NCBI GenBank assembly: GCA_000165425.1
Contig: CT868034.1
Location: 62,001-126,000 of the forward strand
Source: Paramecium tetraurelia
Taxonomy: Eukaryota
DNA length: 64,000 nucleotides
Direction: 5' to 3'
How positions within the stretch are numbered: the stretch's first letter is position 1; the number at the start of each line of letters is the position of its first letter. Below the pieces are notes generated by a model, which saw nothing but the letters and a program-made list of their open reading frames with translations, was not told where the DNA came from and made no database searches. Of this stretch, positions 42,444 to 56,212 are shown piece after piece. A program made the translations under genes and the position numbers.

Positions 42444-44070
42444 TCACATAAACATTCCGTAATTTCTAGCATAAGCCATGGGTGGTAACTTCGGATGTTC
42501 CTAAAAGATTTATAGACCATAGCAAATACCACAGCATCAAATTGAATGAACTTGGGTTTCATTTCGCCTCCCTTAAATATGATAAATGCCCCCTTATTCT
42601 TCATTTGATCACAATAATTAGGAGCTGAGAAAATGGTGATGACTCTGCCATCAGCCTCCACTTCATACCCTTGGTCCTTCATCTCATGGGATCTCACCAA
42701 CAGAGCTTTAATATAGCACTAAACCTACATAAGCCATTTTCATTTAAGAATTTATGAGCAACATCAGGTCCAAAGGATATTGAAATGCCCCTCTTACTTG
42801 GATGTCTTCCATTCTACTTGATGGGATCACTCCACAACATATCAGCCATGGGACCACCTTCAGGGATCTCTCTGAAACGATTTAATTTCTGTAATTCACT
42901 GATGGTGACACCATCATTGGAGAACAATCCCTAAAATGGTAAAAGAGATCATCTTACTCCGTGAACAACCATCACTTATTTGGATAGAGTGTAAGCCAAT
43001 GGTAAATAGTTGAAAACAGTTTAGAACAATTCATAAACCTTGTCATCGTACTTGTGTTTGACTTCCCCTTCAAATCCATATAGCTTGTTCATGTTTCTGC
43101 TTTCATGATTGCCTCTTGTCAAATGCATGATGTCTGGGTTGCATACTTTCCATGCAAACAGAGTCATCATGACTTCAACACTCCAAGACCCTCTGTCCAC
43201 AAAGTCCCCATTGAATAGGTAAGGTCTATTGACTGAGGGGTTGCCATTTATTTTAAAAATGTTTACGAGATCAAAGAATTGTCCATGTGTATCTCCACAA
43301 ACAGTAAACTCAAGATCTCTAGAAAATATATGAATAAATATTTACTTAGGAACATCGTATTCCACAACGTTCTGTTGAGATTTCAATATTTCTCCCACCT
43401 TTTGTAATATCATAACTGCGTATTTTTTGTGTAATTTCTTCTGATCTTTAAAATGATTCATCAATTTCTCACACCTTGTCATAATGTATTAAGTGTTACC
43501 ATTCTGGTGTAACTTCACTGATATCGTTGTCGATTCTGGGTCCATCGTACCCTTGTTCAACATTGATGTCCTGGATATCGATTGGCTCACTCGCTTCATC
43601 TGGTCTTTCAATGGATTTTGCAAATTCTCGTTCGTAGATTGCCTACTTGATTTATTTGAGTTTTGCCTAAATGTCGGCATCTTTTCCTTGGGTGAGAGTG
43701 TCAGCCTATGCAAAATTATTATGAATTGTTTACTCTTTTGAACTCTTTTCGAGCATCGTCGAACTTTCCCAATAGTAAATAAGCAGAACCTTTTCTGTAA
43801 TAAGCCTTAATGAATCCAGAATCCTCTTTTAAAATCTCGTCGGCATCTATAATAGCGAGTCCGTAGTTTTCCATTTTGATGTGTGCAAATGCTCTATTTG
43901 ACAGACAAACAAGTCTTTGATTGCCTAGAGATGAATTACAATTGATGATTACCATTGGCTTTATCAGCAGCAGCAGTGTAGAATTCGATTGCTCTTTGGA
44001 AGTTACTCGATTTAAATTGTTCATTTCCTAGTTCTTTAAGTTTTTCAGCTTCAGGTGAATTTGGAATCAT
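42444..44070 (-). CDS. Ser/Thr protein phosphatase 5 (TPR plus PPP domain)
   Basis: TPRs ([29 protein letters not shown]), [30 protein letters not shown]. Confidence 0.95.
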
Positions 44071-44364
44071 TAATTCTAATCTATACAATAAAGAGAAATA
44101 TTTAATTTATAATGAAACACTCTGTTACTAAATCAACTGCGAATATTTTAGATACTCCTTTATTAAATCAAGGACAGATGAGAAATTAAAGGGATCTAAT
44201 TTTGAATCTATAATTTAAATATTAAAATAAAAAGAAGTTGTTTGTTTATTATTTTGGTTGCATAAGTATTTGTAATTTTTTTTAAGAATCCAAACTGAAA
44301 CATAATTTGCAATATCTATTCAGCCGATTGTAAATTGGCAATTATTTAATAATAAATAATTGAA

Positions 44365-47128: not shown

Positions 47129-48857
47129 ATGCAGGGACAAAGTTCGTAAGATTGGAAGACAAAAAAAGTAGATAGTTTTGTAGTTGTGAATATGAAATTG
47201 GGAAAGGGACAATTCGGAACAGTATATCGTGGTCATTATAAGGATGATCAAACTAAGCAAGTAGCAATCAAGACTATCCCCATGCATGTAATCATCTATT
47301 CACTATATACTCTAGGTTGTGCAGAATAGTGAACAATTGCAGTAACATATCAAAAGAGAGATTGCTATTCTCACAAAAATAGATCATCCCAATATTGTGA
47401 AATTGATCCATGTTACAAAGACCTCCTCCAATTTGTATATGATCTTAGAATTCTGCAAGGATGGAGACTTGGCCGAATATCTAAACAAGAAGTAAGATAA
47501 GCGATTATCCGAATTGGAGGCCGTCATCTTCTTTAAACATGTCATTAAAGGATTCCAGATCCTGCACCAAGAGAAAGTAATCCATCGAGACATCAAACCT
47601 TCAAACATCCTTTTGAATGATGGGGTAGCCAAAATTGCTGATTTTGGATTCGCAAGAATTATTGAATCTGAAATTGATAAAATGAACCTCAGTCGAGTTG
47701 GCTCTCCCATATACATGGCTCCTTAAATTTTGGAAGGAACCTATTTCACTTCCAAATGTGATATATGGTCTATAGGAGTTATGTTTTATGAATTGCTTTA
47801 TGGAGTAACTCCTTGGATCGCCAATGGACAATGCGAATTATTAGAAAAAATTACAACTTAACCTCTTTAATTTCCAGAGATTCCTGTTAGAAGTTAGAAA
47901 GTCAAGAATCTATTAAAATGTATGTTGACTGTGAATGAGGCTGATCGCATCAACTGGGAAGACCTGTTTACGAATGAGATCATTGTCATCGATGAAAAAC
48001 AAATTCATTACAATATGCAATAGATGGAAAAAGAAAAGGATCGATTAATGAGATCGATAAGTCTCAATAAAATTTATATCAATCAAAACTTGATTCTTGG
48101 ATACATGAAGGATGTAAACAAAATTGAAGAAGAGCAATTTGATGCTAAGTAAGGCATTCAATAAGCGACCTATACTGACATCTTCTAACAATATAATGCC
48201 GAGTCTGAAGAGGCAAAAACCATCCAAAAATTAAACACCATTTGCAAATACGAAAGAAACTTGGCATTCTTTTACAGTTTCCTCATCCAAGGCTTGTTTT
48301 CTATGTTGTAACAAAAGGTTATGCCCATATCCATAGAGTTATGCTTCCAGCTTATTTTTTGTATCTCCAAAAATCAACTTATTAAAATGGAGGAACTCTA
48401 TAGAGAAATAAGCAAGTCTCGAAATCCAGAGTATGAAATCTATATGAGATCTTAAGAATTTAAATAGATGTGCAAACATCTCTCTATGGATATTGATCAA
48501 GCCATGAAATTTTTTGTTGAAATTTTAAGGAAATGTTTGAGCCTTCAAAATCAAGCCAAATAAATTGTCCTCAACGAACAAACTAAAGAATTCTATTAAT
48601 AATATTTAAGCATCTTAGATAACAATTTGAACTTGACTGATCAATTTTAATAAGTTTATTATGGAACAGTAAAATTGGTCTTGGACAAGCTGACTTCTGA
48701 AACAGTAGAATTAATGAAGCTAAAGTTCTATTTAAACATTTGTTTGAATCCCAAGATGATTTTTACAGATTACAATTATGACTTTAGTAAGTTTTATGAG
48801 GAAATTCAATATGCCACAGTTGATGATTGGAAAAAAGCCCTTAAAAAGTTCAATTGA
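47129..48857 (+). CDS. Ser/Thr protein kinase (ULK/Atg1-like N-terminal kinase plus helical tail)
   Basis: LGKGQFGTVY, VAIK, HRDIKPSN, DFGFAR, GSPIYMAPQ, DIWSIG. Confidence 0.92.
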
Positions 48858-49821: not shown

Positions 49822-49900
49822 GAATATAATTAATTGAATTTGAATTGCATATTTAAAAATAAATTTGAAAAATCAAATTATTATTATTAAATTGATTTAA

Positions 49901-50801
49901 ATGGATAGTTGTGTTAAATAAAATTCTAATTAAAATCAATTTTGCGAACAATAGAATAGTTAATTTAAAAGTAAAATATTAAATAACAATAGAGTCAGAA
50001 AACGAACTAGCCGAAGAATCAATCATCAATAATGTCAAACTACGATATGGAGAAATCTTGGAACAAAAAGTAAATTTAGGGTGTTGCAGTACATAAGGTT
50101 GTGGAACCATAGATTATGCTATTTTCGCTGAAAAATATTAAAATCTTCAAGGATATATTCCAGAAGCTGATTTAGGCTTAGGATGCGGGATTCCAACTGA
50201 ATTCGCAGAGCTTAAAAAAGGAGATGTTGTCCTTGATTTAGGTTCAGGAGCTGGAAATGATTGTTTCATAGCAAAAGCATAAGTTGGGGAAAGTGGAAGA
50301 GTTATTGGTGTTGATATGACACCTAGTATGATACGAAAAGCTTAATTGAATTCAGATAAATATAATATTAGAAATGTTGAATTCAGATAGGGTGATATTA
50401 CAGATATACCTGTTTTGGATAACTATGTTGATGTTGTCATTAGCAATTGTGTAATCAATTTGGTACCTGATAAAAGAAAAGTATTTTCAGAAATCCATAG
50501 AGTCTTGAAATAAAATGGTCACTTCTCTATAAGTGATGTTCTTTCTACTGGTGATTTGCCTTTAGCGATTAGAAAAGCTTAGGAATTGCATATAGGTGGA
50601 GTTTCAGGCGCTCTTAGAAAAGACATTTATTTAAAAACTCTAGAAGACCTAGGATTTATTGATATCTAAATTAAAAAAGAAAAGGTAATTGATTTCCCAG
50701 ATGAACTGATGTTAAAGTATGTTTCTTAGGAAGAGTTAAACGAATTCTAGAATAGTGGAACAAAAATTTTAAGCGCAACCATTTTTGCAAGAAAAAAATG
50801 A
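49901..50801 (+). CDS. arsM: Arsenite S-adenosylmethionine methyltransferase (ArsM/AS3MT family), bacterial type
   Basis: [60 protein letters not shown]; one 22-nt intron 49971-49992; 293 codons including stop. Confidence 0.93.
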
Positions 50802-52086
50802 TTAATATAGTAAAAATTATACATTAATGATTTTTGATATTTATGAGTAAGAAAGAATTCTAATACTTTTCCTGAATAATATTATTTGTGAGTGCCTAAA
50901 CATTAAAATTTAAAAAATCATAGTGAAGGTAAAAACTATTTTTCCTTTGTCTATTCCTAGTTAATTACATAAAGTTTTAGAGAAAAAAAATTATGCTAAT
51001 AATTTTATCAAATTATTTTATGAGATCAGATACTTGGTTAAACTAATTATTTATTACCTGATCACTAATATTTAAGCTATAAAATAAATTTTCAGGAATT
51101 CTAATAAGTCTTATAATAATAAATAAAAGAAACATAAAAATCTAAATTGCAAAAGAAGAAAGAATGCATTGTTTAAAATAAATAAAATTAAATTTATTGC
51201 AACCAATTGAAACAAGAAACAGCTAAAAATGACCAATTCTGATATCAAATTAATAAGATGTCTAAGATCATTGTCATTTTTAATGAAATATAAAACAACT
51301 TCTATATTGTTATTTCTTTCATAGAATGTATTTCAGAACTCATTTGAGCGCATTTTATTCTATTCTTGTTCTTTCTTTCAATGGAATGACTTTTACTCAT
51401 TATTTAAAAAAATTATTTAATCTATGTTATTTTTCAATTGTGGCTCTTAGAAAGTGATCAAGTTGCATGAATTTTCATATAAATCATTCATATATATCAC
51501 AAATCGAAAAAATAATACAACATCATTAGAATTTAGATTTTTTAATTTTAGGAATTTAGAATTATTATTTTAGAAAAAGACATAAAAACTAGTTAAAAGT
51601 TATGGCATCTCTTTTATTTTTAGCTTCTCTAATTACTAACCTCCTCATTTCAAATTCCTCTCATTCCCACTTTAATTCTCCATTTATTCTTTTCTAATTG
51701 TTTATTTTTCTGGTCATTAACTCATTAAATTTTCATCCTTCTAAATGAGTACTTATAGATTGAAGTATGTTGATGACTGATGATTTTTATGTATGAATAT
51801 AATAGTTTAAGTTATAATTTTGTTTAGTCAAAATATAGACATGGAGTATATAATGTTGGATTTTTACAAAAATTTCCTGAATTCACAAATTGCCAGTTGT
51901 TTAGGTAGGTAGACTAGTGTTTAGAATTTCGTAATGAACGTAGAAGTTAATAAAATCTTTATAAATAATGTGGAATAATTTATAGATAGTACGATTTAAC
52001 TTGATTAAAATGAATTATCAGAAATTCCATTATTTATAGTATAAAGCTTTTTAGGAATTTCATTTCTTCATAAAAAAATATAAATA

Positions 52087-55000
52087 ATGAAAACAGAAAA
52101 CTAATAAGAAAATTAGGTTTTGACAAATGGGAATGGAGCCAATAGTTAGCCTAAAGAAGAACCAATGGTTCCATATTTTGAGCTTCTCAGGTATGCGAGT
52201 CCAAAAGACAAACTATTGATGATCATAGGTGGGATTGCAGCTTTTCTCAATGGAGCTTCATTTCCAAGTTTTTCAATCATTTTTGGAGATATGACTGATT
52301 CTTTTTCGTAAACAGGCGACGAAATGGTTCGATAAGCAGGGTTAAATGCAATGTAATTATTATAAAAATATGTATAGTTATTTCATTATTGTTGCTGCTG
52401 GGACAATGCTGATGTCCTTTATAATGTTTGCAACATGGATGATAACTGGTGAAAATCAGAGTATAGAATTTAGAAAAAGATATTTTGCTGCAATTTTAAA
52501 ATAAGAGATTGGCTGGTTTGATACAATTAATCCAAATGAATTGAATAGCAAAGTGGCAAATGAGACCTTTGCCGTATAGGGAGCCATAGGAGAGAAAGTT
52601 CCCACATTTATTATGACTTTTTCTATGTCATTCTTTGGATTTTTAATTGGTTACATTTAGTAAATTTTTATAATAATATTTTAGTGGTTGGTAATTAGCC
52701 TTAGTTGTAACAGCCACTCTACCAGCAATTTCAATAGCCACAGCCATATTTGCTATTATTATCCAAACTTCTGAGAATGCAACCCAAAAGTCATATTCTG
52801 ATGCTGGAGCATTAGCAGAATAAGCAATCAATGCAATTAAGACAGTGAAGATGTTGGATGGTGAGGACTTCGAAGTTGAGAAATACAAAAAGCATCTACT
52901 TTAAGCAACTGCAACAACAATCAGCTATCAATTTGGTGTTGGTTTAGCTTTTGGATTTTTATGGGCAGCCATGCTTTGGGCTTATGCACTTGGTTTCTGG
53001 TATGGAGCTAAATTAATATCTGATTAAGTATTGAATATATTAATATCAAAAGACTCTTAATCACAACATGGGAGAAGTTTATACAGTAGGAGATGTGATG
53101 ATTATCTTTTTTGCCATTTTGACTGGTGGATTCTCATTAGGATAGGCAGGTCCTTGTGTATAGAATTTTGCTAAAGGTAGACAGGCAGCAGTTAAAATGT
53201 TCGCTGTTTTAGATAGACATCCAAGAATTGTCAACCCTGTTAACCCAAAAAAGTTAACATCTTTTAATGGAACAATTTTATTGAAAAATATTTAATTTTG
53301 CTATCCAAACAGACCAGACTAAAAAATATTGAAAGGATTGACCTTAAATATCCCAGCTGGTAAGAAGGTAGCTTTGGTAGGAGAGAGTGGTTGTGGTAAA
53401 TCTACTGTGATGTAATTGATTGAAAGATTCTATGATTGTGAAGAAGGAGAGGTGTTATTTGGCGGAACTGATGGAATCAATGTGAAAGACTTAGATCTGG
53501 TTGATTTGAGAAGTAGAATTGGTCTTGTCGGATAAGAGCCAGTGTTATTTGCTACCAGCATCAAAGAGAACTTATTGTATGGTAAAACTGATGCAACTGA
53601 ATCTGAGATGATTGATGCATTGAAGAAGGCTAATGCTTGGGACTTTGTATCAAAAATGGATAAGGGATTGGAGACTTATGTTGGAATTGGAGGAGGTCAA
53701 TTGAGTGGTGGATAGAAGTAGAGAATTGCAATTGCCAGAGCCATCTTGAAGAAACCATAGATATTGTTACTTGATGAAGCTACCAGTGCTTTGGACAGAA
53801 CCAATGAAAGATTGATTTAAGAAACTTTGGATGAAGTGTCAAAGGGTATTACTACCATTGTCATTGCTCACAGATTAAGCACAATCTAAAATGCTGACTT
53901 AATCTATGTGGTTGATAAAGGTGTAGTCATTGAAATGGGATCTCATTAAGAGTTAATGAACTTGCATGGAAAATATGAGATTTTGGCTAAGAATTAAATC
54001 CAAGCTTAGAAGCATGAAGATGAATCCAGTTCTTCAATTTCTAGTCCTTCAGAAAAGAATATCTAAGATTAAAAAGCTAGTTCTTAAAGATCCGTCTAAA
54101 TAAAGATGAATATGATTGATCAACAAAACATAGTTGTTGCTGTTAAATAGGAGATTGATAGATTTTAGGACTTGGGAGTACCTGAACTAGTAAAGAAGGT
54201 TTCTGGATAAGGTCATCATCATCATCATCACCATCATCATAAGAAAATTGATACTGACATAGAAGCCTAACCATTACCTAAGACTGAAGAAGTAGAAAAG
54301 AAAAAAGAAGTAGATGCACAAATGGGTAGATTGTTCACTTACAATTCTGATGAGAAGGCACAATTTTTTATTGGTATCATAGCAGCCTTAGCAAATGGAT
54401 GCACTTTCCCAGTTTTCTCTTTATTCTTAGCAGAAATGATCACTGTTTTAGTTGAATCTAACCCATCATTTGCTGATTAAAAATGCTCAACGACTTACGA
54501 TAATCCAACACCAGAAATGTGCTAACTTTTCAAAGATGATTTAAAGGATGAAGTAAGAACCAAAGCAGATAGACTTGCCCTTTGGTTCTTCTTAATTGGA
54601 GTGGCTGCTTAAATATTGTGGACATTCCAAATGTACTTCTTGGCTTATGTGGGAGAGAAACTCACCTGCAAATTAAGATTAGACACTTATAGAAAATTGT
54701 TAAGAATGCCCATTGCTTATTTTGACATCCCAAAAAATAATGCAGGTACTTTGACAAGCAGATTGTCAGTCGATTGTAAATTGATTAATGGACTCACTTC
54801 ATCAATTTTGGGTATCAATATAGCTAATGTTGGTGCCTTGATTTGTGGAATAGTTATCTCATTTATTGCCAGTTGGTAAATGACTTTGATTATGCTTGGA
54901 TTGGCTCCTATGTCATATATCGGAGGAATATTGCAAACTCAATTTTTGTAAGGGTTCTCAGATCTCACTGATGAAGCATATAAAGATTCAGGTAATTTGA

Positions 55001-56212
55001 TTATGGAGGCTGTCACCAATGTTAGAACTGTTGTATCTTTTGGAAATGAGGAAATTATTCTTGGAATTTATTCAAAAAAGGTCTAACTTCCATTGATGAA
55101 GGCTAAACAAAGAGGAGTCTATGCTGGTTTGGCTTTTGGATTTTCTTAAATGCAAATGTTCATCATAAATGCTATAGTCTTTTATGTTGGAGCCATTCTT
55201 TGCAGAGATGGAGTCCTCACAATTGAAGACATGTTCAAATCCATTCTTGCCATCACTTTCGCCACTATGAGTGCAGGGAATAACGCTGCCTTTGCAGGTG
55301 ATATTGGAGCAGCTAAGAATGCAAGCAAGAACATTTTTGAAATTCTTGACAGTGAAGATGAATTCTAGAGAGAACAAAGATTGAAAAAGTAGAAACTCAC
55401 TGTACCAGTTTAAGGAGATATCCATTTTAACAATCTTACATTCAAGTATTTTGGAAGAGAAAAGAATGTTTTTGAGAATTTGAGTTTGACTGTTAAACAA
55501 GGATAGAAGGTAGCCTTTGTTGGTCCTTCTGGTTGTGGCAAGTCTACTTTGATGTAAATGTTGATGAGATTTTATGAACCTGATCAAGGTGTTATCACTA
55601 TCAATGGCATCGACATAACAGATTATGATATCAGATATATTAGGAGACAATTTGGAATTGTTTCACAAGAACCAGTGTTATTCAATGGTACCATAAAAGA
55701 GAACATCCAATATAATCTACAAGCGATTACTATGGAGTAAATAGAAAACGCATCCAAGAAAGCCAATGCTTATGATTTCGTTACTAAAAATTAATTTGAA
55801 GAAACCTAAGCAGAACAAAAAGGAACTGAACAACAGAGGGGAACAGGATTCGATAGATAAGTAGGACCAAAAGGAGCCTAAATTTCAGGTGGTCAAAAAT
55901 AAAGAATTGCCATTGCCAGAGCCATCCTTAGAGATTCAAATCTCTTATTACTTGATGAAGCCACAAGTGCTCTAGATGCTGCAAGTGAATAATTAGTGCA
56001 AGACAGTCTAAATAAACTGATGGAAGGAAAGACCACTGTTGCCATTGCTCATAGAATCTCAACAATCAAAGTAATTCATTTTTAATATCCATTAGGACTC
56101 TGATGCCATCTATGTCTTCGAAGACGGTAAAATCGTTGAAGAAGGAAATTACTAAAAATTGGTTGGCCTTAAAGGCGCTTTCTATAGACTTGAATAAGGA
56201 ATTGCTAAATGA
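52087..56212 (+). CDS. Full-length ABCB (MDR/P-glycoprotein) transporter
   Basis: [63 protein letters not shown]; tiny introns. Confidence 0.97.
54214..54240 (+). repeat. (CAY)9 trinucleotide run encoding His9 in the ABCB linker
   Basis: cat x5, cac, cat x3 in frame between NBD1 and TMD2. Confidence 0.95.

What the first reader, a model, noticed from the sequence alone, without database searches (positions are those of the whole stretch)
49901..50801. ArsM looks bacterial (Bacteroidota-like): probable domesticated horizontal transfer
Seen: a compact protein of about 290 aa with [36 protein letters not shown] and a C-terminal [40 protein letters not shown]. From my recollection of the family, this tail matches Bacteroidota ArsM rather than the longer animal AS3MT. 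It uses TAA/TAG-Gln codons and has one 22-nt intron confined to an N-terminal extension, so it is integrated ciliate DNA, not contamination. Origin by HGT is inference.
Basis: partly seen in the sequence, partly recalled or inferred. Interest (0 to 1): 0.7.

Follow-up and report, generated by a model that had tools for sequence, protein, structure and literature searches.

The report
Bacterial-origin arsenic methyltransferase gene in Paramecium
A Paramecium gene of the arsenic-methylating enzyme family was acquired long ago from bacteria, which is a known kind of event, and this particular copy has lost one of the cysteines the enzyme needs to hold arsenic.

Summary
Window 49901-50801 (+) holds a two-exon gene for a 292-aa short-type ArsM, with 14 TAA/TAG-Gln codons and a TGA stop. 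RNA data confirm the 22-nt intron (49971-49992). The product is identical to an annotated P. tetraurelia protein.

The horizontal-transfer reading holds. After Paramecium proteins, every hit that carries an organism name is Bacteroidota, mostly Pontibacter, at 54-59% identity. Solved algal and human ArsM/AS3MT reach only 85-95 bits. Paramecium forms one clade (100/100) inside a Bacteroidota/Ignavibacteriota clade (100/100). However, an AU test does not reject a position as sister to all sampled bacteria of that clade (p 0.43), so the exact donor is unresolved.

The gene is fully domesticated. It has the host's composition, a new Cys-bearing N-terminal exon and no bacterial C-terminal Cys tail, and it lies between ordinary eukaryotic genes. 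It predates the P. bursaria/aurelia split. Each of five aurelia species has two copies.

The change is shared with three sibling species. The copy is nevertheless conserved, spliced and expressed, so canonical arsenite methylation by it is doubtful.

ArsM transfer into eukaryotes is already published, so interest is moderate.

The parts
49901..49970 (+). Exon 1: ATG plus 23 codons and one base. It encodes an N-terminal extension (MDSCVKQNSNQNQFCEQQNSQFK) that has no counterpart in the bacterial relatives.
   Evidence: Translation. Same N-terminus in public protein P0312. RNA cover from about 49882. Bacterial relatives have a median of 10 residues before the VKxxYGEI motif, against 37 here.
49971..49992 (+). 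22-nt intron, GTA...TAG. Removing it joins the two reading frames.
   Evidence: Sequence. Left out of two transcript-like contigs. Five RNA reads ending at 49993 carry the exon-1 end as an overhang.
49993..50801 (+). Exon 2: the whole region homologous to bacterial ArsM (SAM-binding Rossmann domain plus C-terminal domain), ending in the TGA stop at 50799-50801.
   Evidence: P0002, 268 aa from 49995. (Methyltransf_31 4.4e-37; NF008823 309.5 bits). AlphaFold model pLDDT 90.6. The best 13 PDB fold matches are all ArsM/AS3MT.
50598..50600 (+). GGA codon, Gly226 of the 292-aa protein (Gly202 of P0002), at the position of the metalloid-binding Cys224 of CmArsM.
   Evidence: The alignment to 4fr0 puts G202 opposite C224. 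This column is Cys in 84 of 85 non-Paramecium rows. RNA reads and contigs show no other letters here.
49882..50836 (+). Approximate extent of the transcript: very short 5' leader and a 3' UTR of about 35 nt.
   Evidence: Depth table and contig pieces 49906-50836 and 49942-50827. The ends are approximate because bins are 47 nt wide.

Best explanation
This is a nuclear gene of a Paramecium aurelia-complex species. Its product is identical to P. tetraurelia GSPATT00034309001. It descends from a short bacterial ArsM (As(III) S-adenosylmethionine methyltransferase, NF008823 type).

Origin. The gene was taken up from a Bacteroidota-like (FCB-group) bacterium before P. bursaria and the aurelia complex diverged.

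Domestication. It took on the host's AT-rich codon usage, including TAA/TAG for Gln. It gained a new first exon that supplies the start codon and a Cys-bearing N-terminal extension, separated from the rest by a 22-nt intron. It lost the bacterial Cys-rich C-terminal tail.

Duplication. Each of the five aurelia species found here (P. tetraurelia, octaurelia, primaurelia, pentaurelia, sonneborni) has two copies. Copy A keeps all catalytic cysteines and a very Cys-rich N-terminus. Copy B, the one in this window, is transcribed, spliced and conserved, but has Gly in place of the metalloid-binding cysteine (CmArsM Cys224).

Shown here: gene structure, expression, bacterial affinity, paralogy and the Cys loss. 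Inferred: the direction and age of the transfer, and that copy B still binds SAM but cannot methylate arsenite by the canonical Cys174/Cys224 dithiol mechanism. If so, arsenic methylation in the cell would fall to copy A, and B would have a changed or reduced role.
For: Gene model and expression.

Family: NF008823 at 309.5 bits against cutoff 263, aligned 5-267 of 272. AlphaFold pLDDT 90.6. PDB fold matches ranked 1-13 are all ArsM/AS3MT, TMq 0.62-0.67.

Bacterial affinity:
- A profile built from 12 Paramecium proteins gives the same picture, with 28 of 28 named bacterial hits Bacteroidota.
- Solved eukaryotic ArsM/AS3MT score only 85-95 bits, while the 150 best cluster representatives all score at least 168 bits.

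Trees:
- Paramecium is one clade at 100/100, inside a 65-row clade at 100/100 that holds all 12 named Bacteroidota. That clade is separate from an archaeal/Chloroflexota/Latescibacterota clade.
- The result is the same with Runella, Adhaeribacter, Chitinophagaceae and Ignavibacteriota added.

Integration: the neighbours are a PPP5 phosphatase, a protein kinase and an ABCB transporter, all read in code 6. Exon 2 GC is 32.3% and the window is 31.5%.

Domestication: 108 of 114 bacterial hits have 2 or more Cys in the last 16 residues, against 0 of 12 Paramecium proteins. The N-terminal part is 37-134 aa in Paramecium against a median of 10 in bacteria.

Paralogy: each of five species has both copies.

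Cys loss. All four conserved cysteines are needed for As(III) methylation, and Cys174/Cys224 form the metalloid site (PMC6138428, passages read; PMC6950371, passages).

Constraint on copy B: the tet/oct/pri/pen orthologues are 91-98% identical, similar to copy A at 95-96%. Of 27 fixed B-versus-A differences, only the Cys-to-Gly change hits a family-conserved site.
Against: The donor is not pinned down. Holding all 26 sampled bacterial rows of the FCB clade together, with Paramecium outside, costs only 1.43 lnL (AU p 0.425). The nearest-sister branches are weak (89 SH-aLRT to P0082; 95/47 to a Bacteroidetes MAG). The bootstrap had not fully settled.

Most close relatives are metagenome proteins without organism names: 88 of 120.

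Other ciliates such as Tetrahymena were not specifically searched. Only top-120 lists were visible, so a more divergent ciliate orthologue cannot be excluded.

No codon-level dN/dS could be computed, because no DNA of the other species was available. No enzyme assay exists for either copy. A compensating thiol elsewhere (Cys54/55/60 near the N-terminus) cannot be excluded.

The A/B split has only moderate support (76/89).
Confidence: 0.8

Rival explanations
1. Copy B is still a working arsenite methyltransferase. Another thiol, such as Cys54/55/60 of the GCCSTQGCG motif or glutathione, stands in for the missing Cys224 equivalent.
For: The other family cysteines are all kept: the N-terminal pair and the Cys72 and Cys174 equivalents. 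The SAM motif and the fold are intact. The gene is expressed. P. sonneborni copy B has a Cys one residue earlier, which suggests some positional play at this site.
Against: This column is Cys in 84 of 85 non-Paramecium rows. The literature passages read say the Cys174/Cys224 pair is the metalloid site and is needed for both methylation steps. Even the reduced-cysteine Bacillus sp. CX-1 enzyme keeps this pair. There is no Cys anywhere after residue 176 in this protein.
Confidence: 0.2
2. Copy B is a duplicate on its way to being lost. It is transcribed but no longer selected for any function.
For: It lost the key Cys. Cysteines have also been progressively lost from the N-terminal extension: 6 in pri/pen, 3 in oct and 2 in the window, against 8-16 in copy A. 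The branch leading to copy B is longer than that of copy A.
Against: The reading frame is intact in five species. Identity among four species is 91-98%, as high as for copy A. Only 1 of 27 fixed differences hits a conserved site. The RNA is spliced and polyadenylated.
Confidence: 0.15
3. The gene was not transferred from bacteria. It is an old eukaryotic gene inherited vertically and lost almost everywhere else.
For: Other ciliate proteomes were not searched exhaustively here. The AU test leaves Paramecium free to sit outside the sampled FCB bacteria.
Against: Identity to Pontibacter is 57-59% over the full length, against about 32% to the algal and human enzymes. No other eukaryote appears in two top-120 lists. 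Paramecium sits inside a 100/100 clade whose named members are otherwise all bacterial. ArsM phylogeny is already known to be shaped by bacteria-to-eukaryote transfers (PMC5398495 and PMC5552862, passages and abstracts).
Confidence: 0.04
4. The sequence is bacterial contamination of the assembly.
For: None beyond the bacterial affinity of the protein.
Against: There are 14 in-frame TAA/TAG codons, a spliced 22-nt intron and oligo-dT RNA. GC3 is 20.5%. Eukaryotic genes lie on both sides within the same 64-kb window. Orthologues occur in six named Paramecium species.
Confidence: 0.01

Closest known systems
Short ArsM of Bacteroidota (NCBIfam NF008823 / PRK11873 type), for example Pontibacter spp.
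   Same: 54-59% identity over about 95% of the length. Same two-part architecture, including the C-terminal KEK-I-PDE...SIT/SAT segment. Same N-terminal CC...C motif, GCG cysteine and SNC cysteine.
   Different: The Paramecium proteins have a 37-134 aa N-terminal extension, which in this gene is encoded largely by a separate exon 1. They lack the Cys-rich C-terminal tail: 0 of 12 have it, against 108 of 114 bacterial hits. They use TAA/TAG for Gln. This copy has Gly in place of the fourth conserved Cys.
Paralogue A of the same species complex (P. tetraurelia GSPATT00016159001 = P0005, and its orthologues)
   Same: 80-84% identical within a species. Same origin and the same loss of the bacterial tail.
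   Different: Copy A keeps the Cys224 equivalent. It has 8-16 Cys, including 3-7 CC pairs, in its N-terminal extension, against 2 Cys and no CC pair in the window's copy B and at most 6 Cys and one CC pair in the other B copies. It also carries an extra ...FCGVGGC... insert.
Structurally solved eukaryotic enzymes: CmArsM (4fr0), CrArsM (5evj), human AS3MT (8xt7)
   Same: Same fold: TMq 0.62-0.67, rmsd 2.2-3.3 A over about 207-227 columns. Same SAM motif and the Cys72 and Cys174 equivalents.
   Different: Only about 32% identity and 85-95 bits. These proteins are longer and have a different C-terminal domain. All have the Cys224 (human Cys206) residue that this protein lacks.
Published bacteria-to-eukaryote ArsM/AS3MT transfers (Palmgren et al. 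2017, PMC5398495; Chen et al. 2017, PMC5552862; anaerobic ciliates, PMC13198582)
   Same: The same kind of event: a bacterial arsenic methyltransferase gene fixed in a eukaryotic lineage.
   Different: Paramecium, Tetrahymena and Pontibacter are not mentioned in the main text of either 2017 paper or in 12 of 13 Palmgren supplement files. The Chen supplement could not be read. The 2026 paper lists AS3MT among transfers into anaerobic ciliates, and its Paramecium mentions concern other genes.
Natural ArsMs with a reduced cysteine set (Bacillus sp. CX-1 ArsM, as described in the review PMC6950371)
   Same: They depart from the four-cysteine rule.
   Different: In that enzyme the N-terminal cysteines are the ones missing, and the Cys145/Cys195 pair (the Cys174/Cys224 equivalents) is kept and necessary. 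Here a member of that essential pair is the one lost.
TpyArsM of Tetrahymena pyriformis (Ye et al. 2014; known here only from a review passage, because the paper itself is not held)
   Same: An arsenite methyltransferase from an oligohymenophorean ciliate, shown to be active.

Membership tests
ArsM / AS3MT (As(III) SAM methyltransferase) | Whole-protein match to a curated family model above its cutoff | tested here: met
   NF008823 at 309.5 bits against cutoff 263, residues 8-267 on profile positions 5-267 of 272.
ArsM / AS3MT (As(III) SAM methyltransferase) | Class I SAM-binding Rossmann domain with the DLGSGxGxD motif | tested here: met
   Pfam Methyltransf_31 at 4.4e-37. [13 protein letters not shown] is invariant in the alignment.
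ArsM / AS3MT (As(III) SAM methyltransferase) | Fold like the solved ArsM structures | tested here: met
   Model pLDDT 90.6 and pTM 0.89. PDB matches ranked 1-13 are all CmArsM, CrArsM or hAS3MT, TMq 0.62-0.67.
ArsM / AS3MT (As(III) SAM methyltransferase) | Four conserved cysteines (CmArsM Cys44, Cys72, Cys174, Cys224), all required for As(III) methylation (PMC6138428) | tested here: not met
   The N-terminal Cys motif and the Cys72 and Cys174 equivalents are present. The Cys224 equivalent is Gly (G202 of P0002, G226 of the full protein). There is no Cys downstream of residue 176.
ArsM / AS3MT (As(III) SAM methyltransferase) | Catalyses SAM-dependent methylation of As(III) or MAs(III) | not testable with these tools
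Horizontally acquired bacterial gene fixed in a eukaryote | Physically part of the host nuclear genome and expressed by host rules | tested here: met
   Ciliate code, spliced 22-nt intron, oligo-dT RNA reads, eukaryotic neighbours and host-like GC.
Horizontally acquired bacterial gene fixed in a eukaryote | Nearest relatives are bacterial, and the recipient clade falls within bacterial diversity | tested here: met
   for hit lists. for trees: 100/100 for the enclosing clade, whose named members are otherwise all bacterial.
Horizontally acquired bacterial gene fixed in a eukaryote | Nested inside one donor phylum (Bacteroidota) with statistical support | tested here: inconclusive
   Nested in the ML trees. 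In one search, 0 of 200 bootstrap trees make Bacteroidota one side of a branch. But the AU test does not reject Paramecium lying outside all 26 sampled bacterial rows of the FCB clade (p 0.425).
Horizontally acquired bacterial gene fixed in a eukaryote | Absent from related eukaryotes (patchy distribution) | tested here: inconclusive
   No non-Paramecium eukaryote appears in either top-120 list. Only the best 120 of 8000 scored candidates are visible, no genome is held for the window, and no ciliate proteomes were available.

The most novel reading that the evidence does not exclude
After the duplication in the aurelia complex, one copy of a horizontally acquired arsenic-detoxification gene gave up the canonical dithiol arsenic site (Cys to Gly). 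It has since been kept under purifying selection in at least four species as an expressed SAM-dependent methyltransferase with a new substrate or a regulatory or binding role. That would be neofunctionalisation of a bacterial gene inside a ciliate.
Probability: 0.35. Interest if true: 0.55.

Novelty: new member of a known kind. Interest (0 to 1): 0.35.

Why it matters
It adds a well-documented ciliate case to the known pattern of arsenic methyltransferase genes moving from bacteria into eukaryotes. The case comes with RNA-confirmed gene structure, a minimum age (before the P. bursaria/aurelia split) and visible domestication steps: a new exon and intron, tail loss and recoding.

The more useful point for specialists is the natural experiment. 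There are two paralogues in each aurelia species, and one of them lacks the metalloid-binding cysteine yet is conserved and expressed. This makes it directly testable whether a Cys224-less ArsM can still act on arsenic or has taken up another role.

It also warns that the automatic database name 'Arsenite methyltransferase' given to this copy may overstate its function.

Tried and rejected
- Whole-genome search of the window's assembly: no genome is held.
- The search for related loci in genome contigs: it returned only 37 loci, nearly all Methanothrix-type archaea plus Chloroflexota, Latescibacterota and two unclassified records, at 40-51% identity. The short patterns came from the Paramecium sequence, so it missed Bacteroidota.
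The step was dropped.
- The look-up of sequencing runs: no RNA holder listed among the indexed runs. Raw RNA-seq runs added by species label were laid instead.
- The listing of cluster members: gave organism names for only 4 of the 20 clusters looked up, so many tree rows stay unlabelled.
- Composition screen for AT-rich, possibly eukaryotic representatives: the candidates P0258, P0238 and P0184 carried no organism names, so they could not be classified, and P0082 ends in a Cys-rich C-terminal tail like the bacterial hits.
- Pfam scan of the Cys-rich N-terminal extension of a copy-A protein: no family matched, so its origin is unexplained.
- The search of earlier findings: only bacterial ars operons came up, with nothing on ciliates or this genome.
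- Ye et al. 2014 (Tetrahymena ArsM) is not held. The Chen 2017 supplement is unreadable. One of the 13 Palmgren supplement files was not searched.
- AU test for nesting within the FCB bacteria: not significant.
- A second ArsM copy in the window: none found.

Full report
**What is there**

Under the ciliate code, one frame is open from 49896 to a TGA at 50799-50801. It has no ATG upstream of the methyltransferase core. The ATG at 49901 is in another frame and reads MDSCVKQNSNQNQFCEQQNSQFK. Removing the 22-nt stretch GTAAAATATTAAATAACAATAG (49971-49992) joins the two frames into a 292-aa product. Exon 1 has 4 TAA/TAG-Gln codons and exon 2 has 10.

**RNA evidence**

- Two oligo-dT RNA-seq runs, kept as raw reads, put 54 and 88 reads on 49882-50821 only. 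Every first mate lies on the minus strand, and depth is 0 in both flanks.
- Two other runs hold transcript-sized contigs (909 nt covering 49906-50836; 864 nt covering 49942-50827). Both match with 0 other letters and lack exactly the 22 nt at 49971.
- Five RNA reads ending at 49993 carry GTTAATTTAAAA, the last 12 nt of exon 1, as an overhang.
- The kind of the two contig runs (RNA) is the tool's guess. The raw-read runs are on record as RNA.

A public P. tetraurelia protein (P0312, 292 aa, named 'Arsenite methyltransferase' by UniRef) has the same N-terminus and is 100% identical over exon 2. The gene model is therefore already in the databases.

**Family**

- Pfam gives Methyltransf_31 at 4.4e-37.
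- NCBIfam NF008823 'arsenite methyltransferase' scores 309.5 bits against a cutoff of 263, aligned end to end.
- An AlphaFold model built from a 67-row alignment has pLDDT 90.6 and pTM 0.89.
- Its 13 best PDB fold matches are all CmArsM, CrArsM or human AS3MT, with TMq 0.62-0.67 and about 32% identity.
- By sequence, those solved eukaryotic enzymes reach only 85-95 bits.

**Relatives**

- One search listed the best 120 of 8000 scored candidates. Five are named Paramecium clusters (octaurelia 97%, primaurelia 92%, tetraurelia 78%, sonneborni 75%, bursaria 66%). One is an unnamed Paramecium-like Logan protein. Twenty-six are organism-named bacterial proteins, all Bacteroidota (23 Pontibacter, 2 'Bacteroidetes bacterium', 1 Hymenobacteraceae) at 54-59% identity.
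- A profile of 12 Paramecium proteins gave the same order. The 6 Paramecium clusters came first, followed by bacteria. All 28 named bacterial hits were Bacteroidota (25 Pontibacter, 3 Bacteroidetes MAGs). No other eukaryote appeared.
- The exhaustive search of 50%-identity representatives found 1018 clusters at E <= 1e-30.
- 108 of the 114 non-Paramecium hits end in a tail with 2 or more cysteines. None of 12 Paramecium proteins does.

**Trees: how the rows were chosen**

- Of 271 proteins with a domain hit, 164 covered the full domain and 107 were dropped as partial.
- The close hits were thinned to 33 at 80% identity.
- 45 representatives and 7 named archaeal or bacterial loci were added.
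- For the careful tree, 16 long-branch rows were removed and 8 named Bacteroidota were added, giving 84 rows.

**Trees: results**

- In the 84-row tree, the 7 Paramecium rows are one clade (100/100). They sit inside a 65-row clade (100/100) that contains all 12 named Bacteroidota. That clade is separate from the Methanothrix/Chloroflexota/Latescibacterota clade (100/100). Inside the 65-row clade the backbone is a polytomy, and the bootstrap had not fully settled.
- A search seeded with a basal row (P0136) added 7 named relatives: Runella, Adhaeribacter, two Chitinophagaceae, two Ignavibacteria and one Melioribacteraceae.
- A 45-row tree chosen for named rows and rooted on the far clade again nests Paramecium (12 rows, 100/100) in the Bacteroidota/Ignavibacteriota clade (100/100). 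The nearest named row is a Bacteroidetes MAG (95/47).
- In that tree, Bacteroidota formed one side of a branch in 0 of 200 bootstrap trees.
- However, forcing all 26 bacterial rows of that clade together, with Paramecium outside, lowers lnL by only 1.43 (AU p 0.425).

Bacterial (FCB-group, Bacteroidota-like) affinity is therefore solid. Strict nesting and the donor family are not resolved.

**Integration and domestication**

- The neighbours, read in code 6, are a PPP5-type phosphatase (minus strand, 42949-44316), a protein kinase (47196-48854) and a full-size ABCB transporter (about 52617-56100).
- Exon 2 has GC 32.3% and GC3 20.5%. The window has GC 31.5%.
- Homology to the bacterial proteins starts only a few residues after the exon 1/2 junction.
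- The part before the VKxxYGEI motif is 37-134 aa in the 11 full-length Paramecium proteins. Its median is 10 aa in the 102 of 114 bacterial hits where the motif was found.
- Pfam finds nothing in this extension.

**Two paralogues, and a missing cysteine**

Cluster look-ups show that P. tetraurelia, octaurelia, primaurelia, pentaurelia and sonneborni each have two copies.
- Copy A (P0005 and its orthologues) is 91-96% identical between species.
- Copy B (the window's) is 91-98% identical among tet/oct/pri/pen and about 75% to P. sonneborni.
- A and B are 80-84% identical within a species.
- B forms a clade at 76/89 or 95/91.

At the column of the fourth conserved cysteine, 84 of 85 non-Paramecium rows have Cys. 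So do copy A, P. bursaria and the Logan protein. B of tet (the window), oct, pri and pen has Gly, and B of P. sonneborni has the Cys shifted by one residue. The alignment to 4fr0 puts this Gly (G202 of P0002, G226 of the full protein, codon GGA at 50598-50600) opposite CmArsM Cys224. RNA reads and contigs show no other letter there.

Passages read in PMC6138428 and PMC6950371 state three things. All four cysteines are needed for As(III) methylation. Cys174/Cys224 bind the metalloid and are needed for the second methylation step as well. Even the reduced-cysteine Bacillus sp. CX-1 enzyme keeps this pair.

Of 27 positions fixed differently between B (four species) and A, only this one hits a site conserved in at least 80% of the family. 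Cysteines in the N-terminal extension also fall away, from 8-16 in A to 6, 3 and 2 in B.

**Interpretation**

Shown: a spliced, expressed Paramecium gene of bacterial ArsM ancestry, present before the bursaria/aurelia split, duplicated in the aurelia complex, with this copy lacking the metalloid-binding cysteine.

Inferred:
- Transfer ran from an FCB/Bacteroidota-like bacterium, possibly prey.
- The duplication corresponds to the aurelia whole-genome duplication. I recall this from Aury et al. 2006 and did not test it here.
- Copy B still binds SAM but does not methylate arsenite in the canonical way.
- The similar between-species conservation of A and B argues for continued constraint on B. 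Without codon alignments this is not a formal test.

**Prior knowledge**

Recurrent bacteria-to-eukaryote transfer of ArsM/AS3MT is published (PMC5398495 and PMC5552862; abstracts and passages read). A 2026 paper lists AS3MT among transfers into anaerobic ciliates (PMC13198582; passages). Searches combining Paramecium with arsenite methyltransferase, gene transfer or arsenic found no paper describing the Paramecium genes. The two 2017 papers do not mention Paramecium, Tetrahymena or Pontibacter in their main text, nor do 12 of 13 Palmgren supplement files. The Chen supplement could not be read and may list further taxa.

**Verdict**

The donor can be placed only in the Bacteroidota-like FCB group. 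The kind of event is known and the gene is already annotated. The conserved copy without the Cys224 equivalent is the one new and testable element.

Noticed in passing
window 51784-56100 (+): Directly downstream on the same strand lies a full-size ABCB (MDR/P-glycoprotein-type) transporter with two ABC_membrane and two ABC_tran regions. Adjacency to an arsenic-family gene is probably chance and was not examined in other species.
   Followed up: no
window 50628-50630 (Tyr236 of the 292-aa protein): At this column, copy B has Tyr (TAT), as do 79 of 85 bacterial rows. Copy A, P. bursaria and the Logan protein have Gln. In the ciliate code Tyr (TAY) and Gln (TAR) differ by one third-position change, so Tyr/Gln swaps may be unusually easy in these genomes.
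   Followed up: no
proteins P0005, P0313-P0316 (copy A, other Paramecium scaffolds): The N-terminal extensions of copy A are built of Cys-Cys/Gln-rich modules (for example CCEKQTCCQEEQ, repeated in P. sonneborni), with 8-16 Cys. They may functionally replace the lost bacterial Cys-rich C-terminal tail. No Pfam family matches them.
   Followed up: partly
proteins P0136, P0318-P0329, P0323 (Runella slithyformis): A subgroup of the bacterial relatives is a fusion of ArsM with a C-terminal GNAT acetyltransferase domain (PF00583/PF13508), about 420-450 aa. P0123 (545 aa) carries two ArsM domains in tandem.
   Followed up: no
protein P0241 (representative, far clade): This is the only non-Paramecium row of 85 without the fourth conserved Cys (Gly there). 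It sits on a long branch in the Chloroflexota/archaeal clade.
   Followed up: no
protein P0007 (P. bursaria, 392 aa): The annotated P. bursaria protein has a 134-aa N-terminal part rich in I, L, F and Q that does not align with the other species. This may be a mis-called gene start rather than a real extension.
   Followed up: no
window 42949-44316 (-) and 47196-48854 (+): There is a PPP5-type Ser/Thr phosphatase (Metallophos plus PPP5 TPR region) and a protein kinase upstream. Both are ordinary eukaryotic genes read in code 6.
   Followed up: partly
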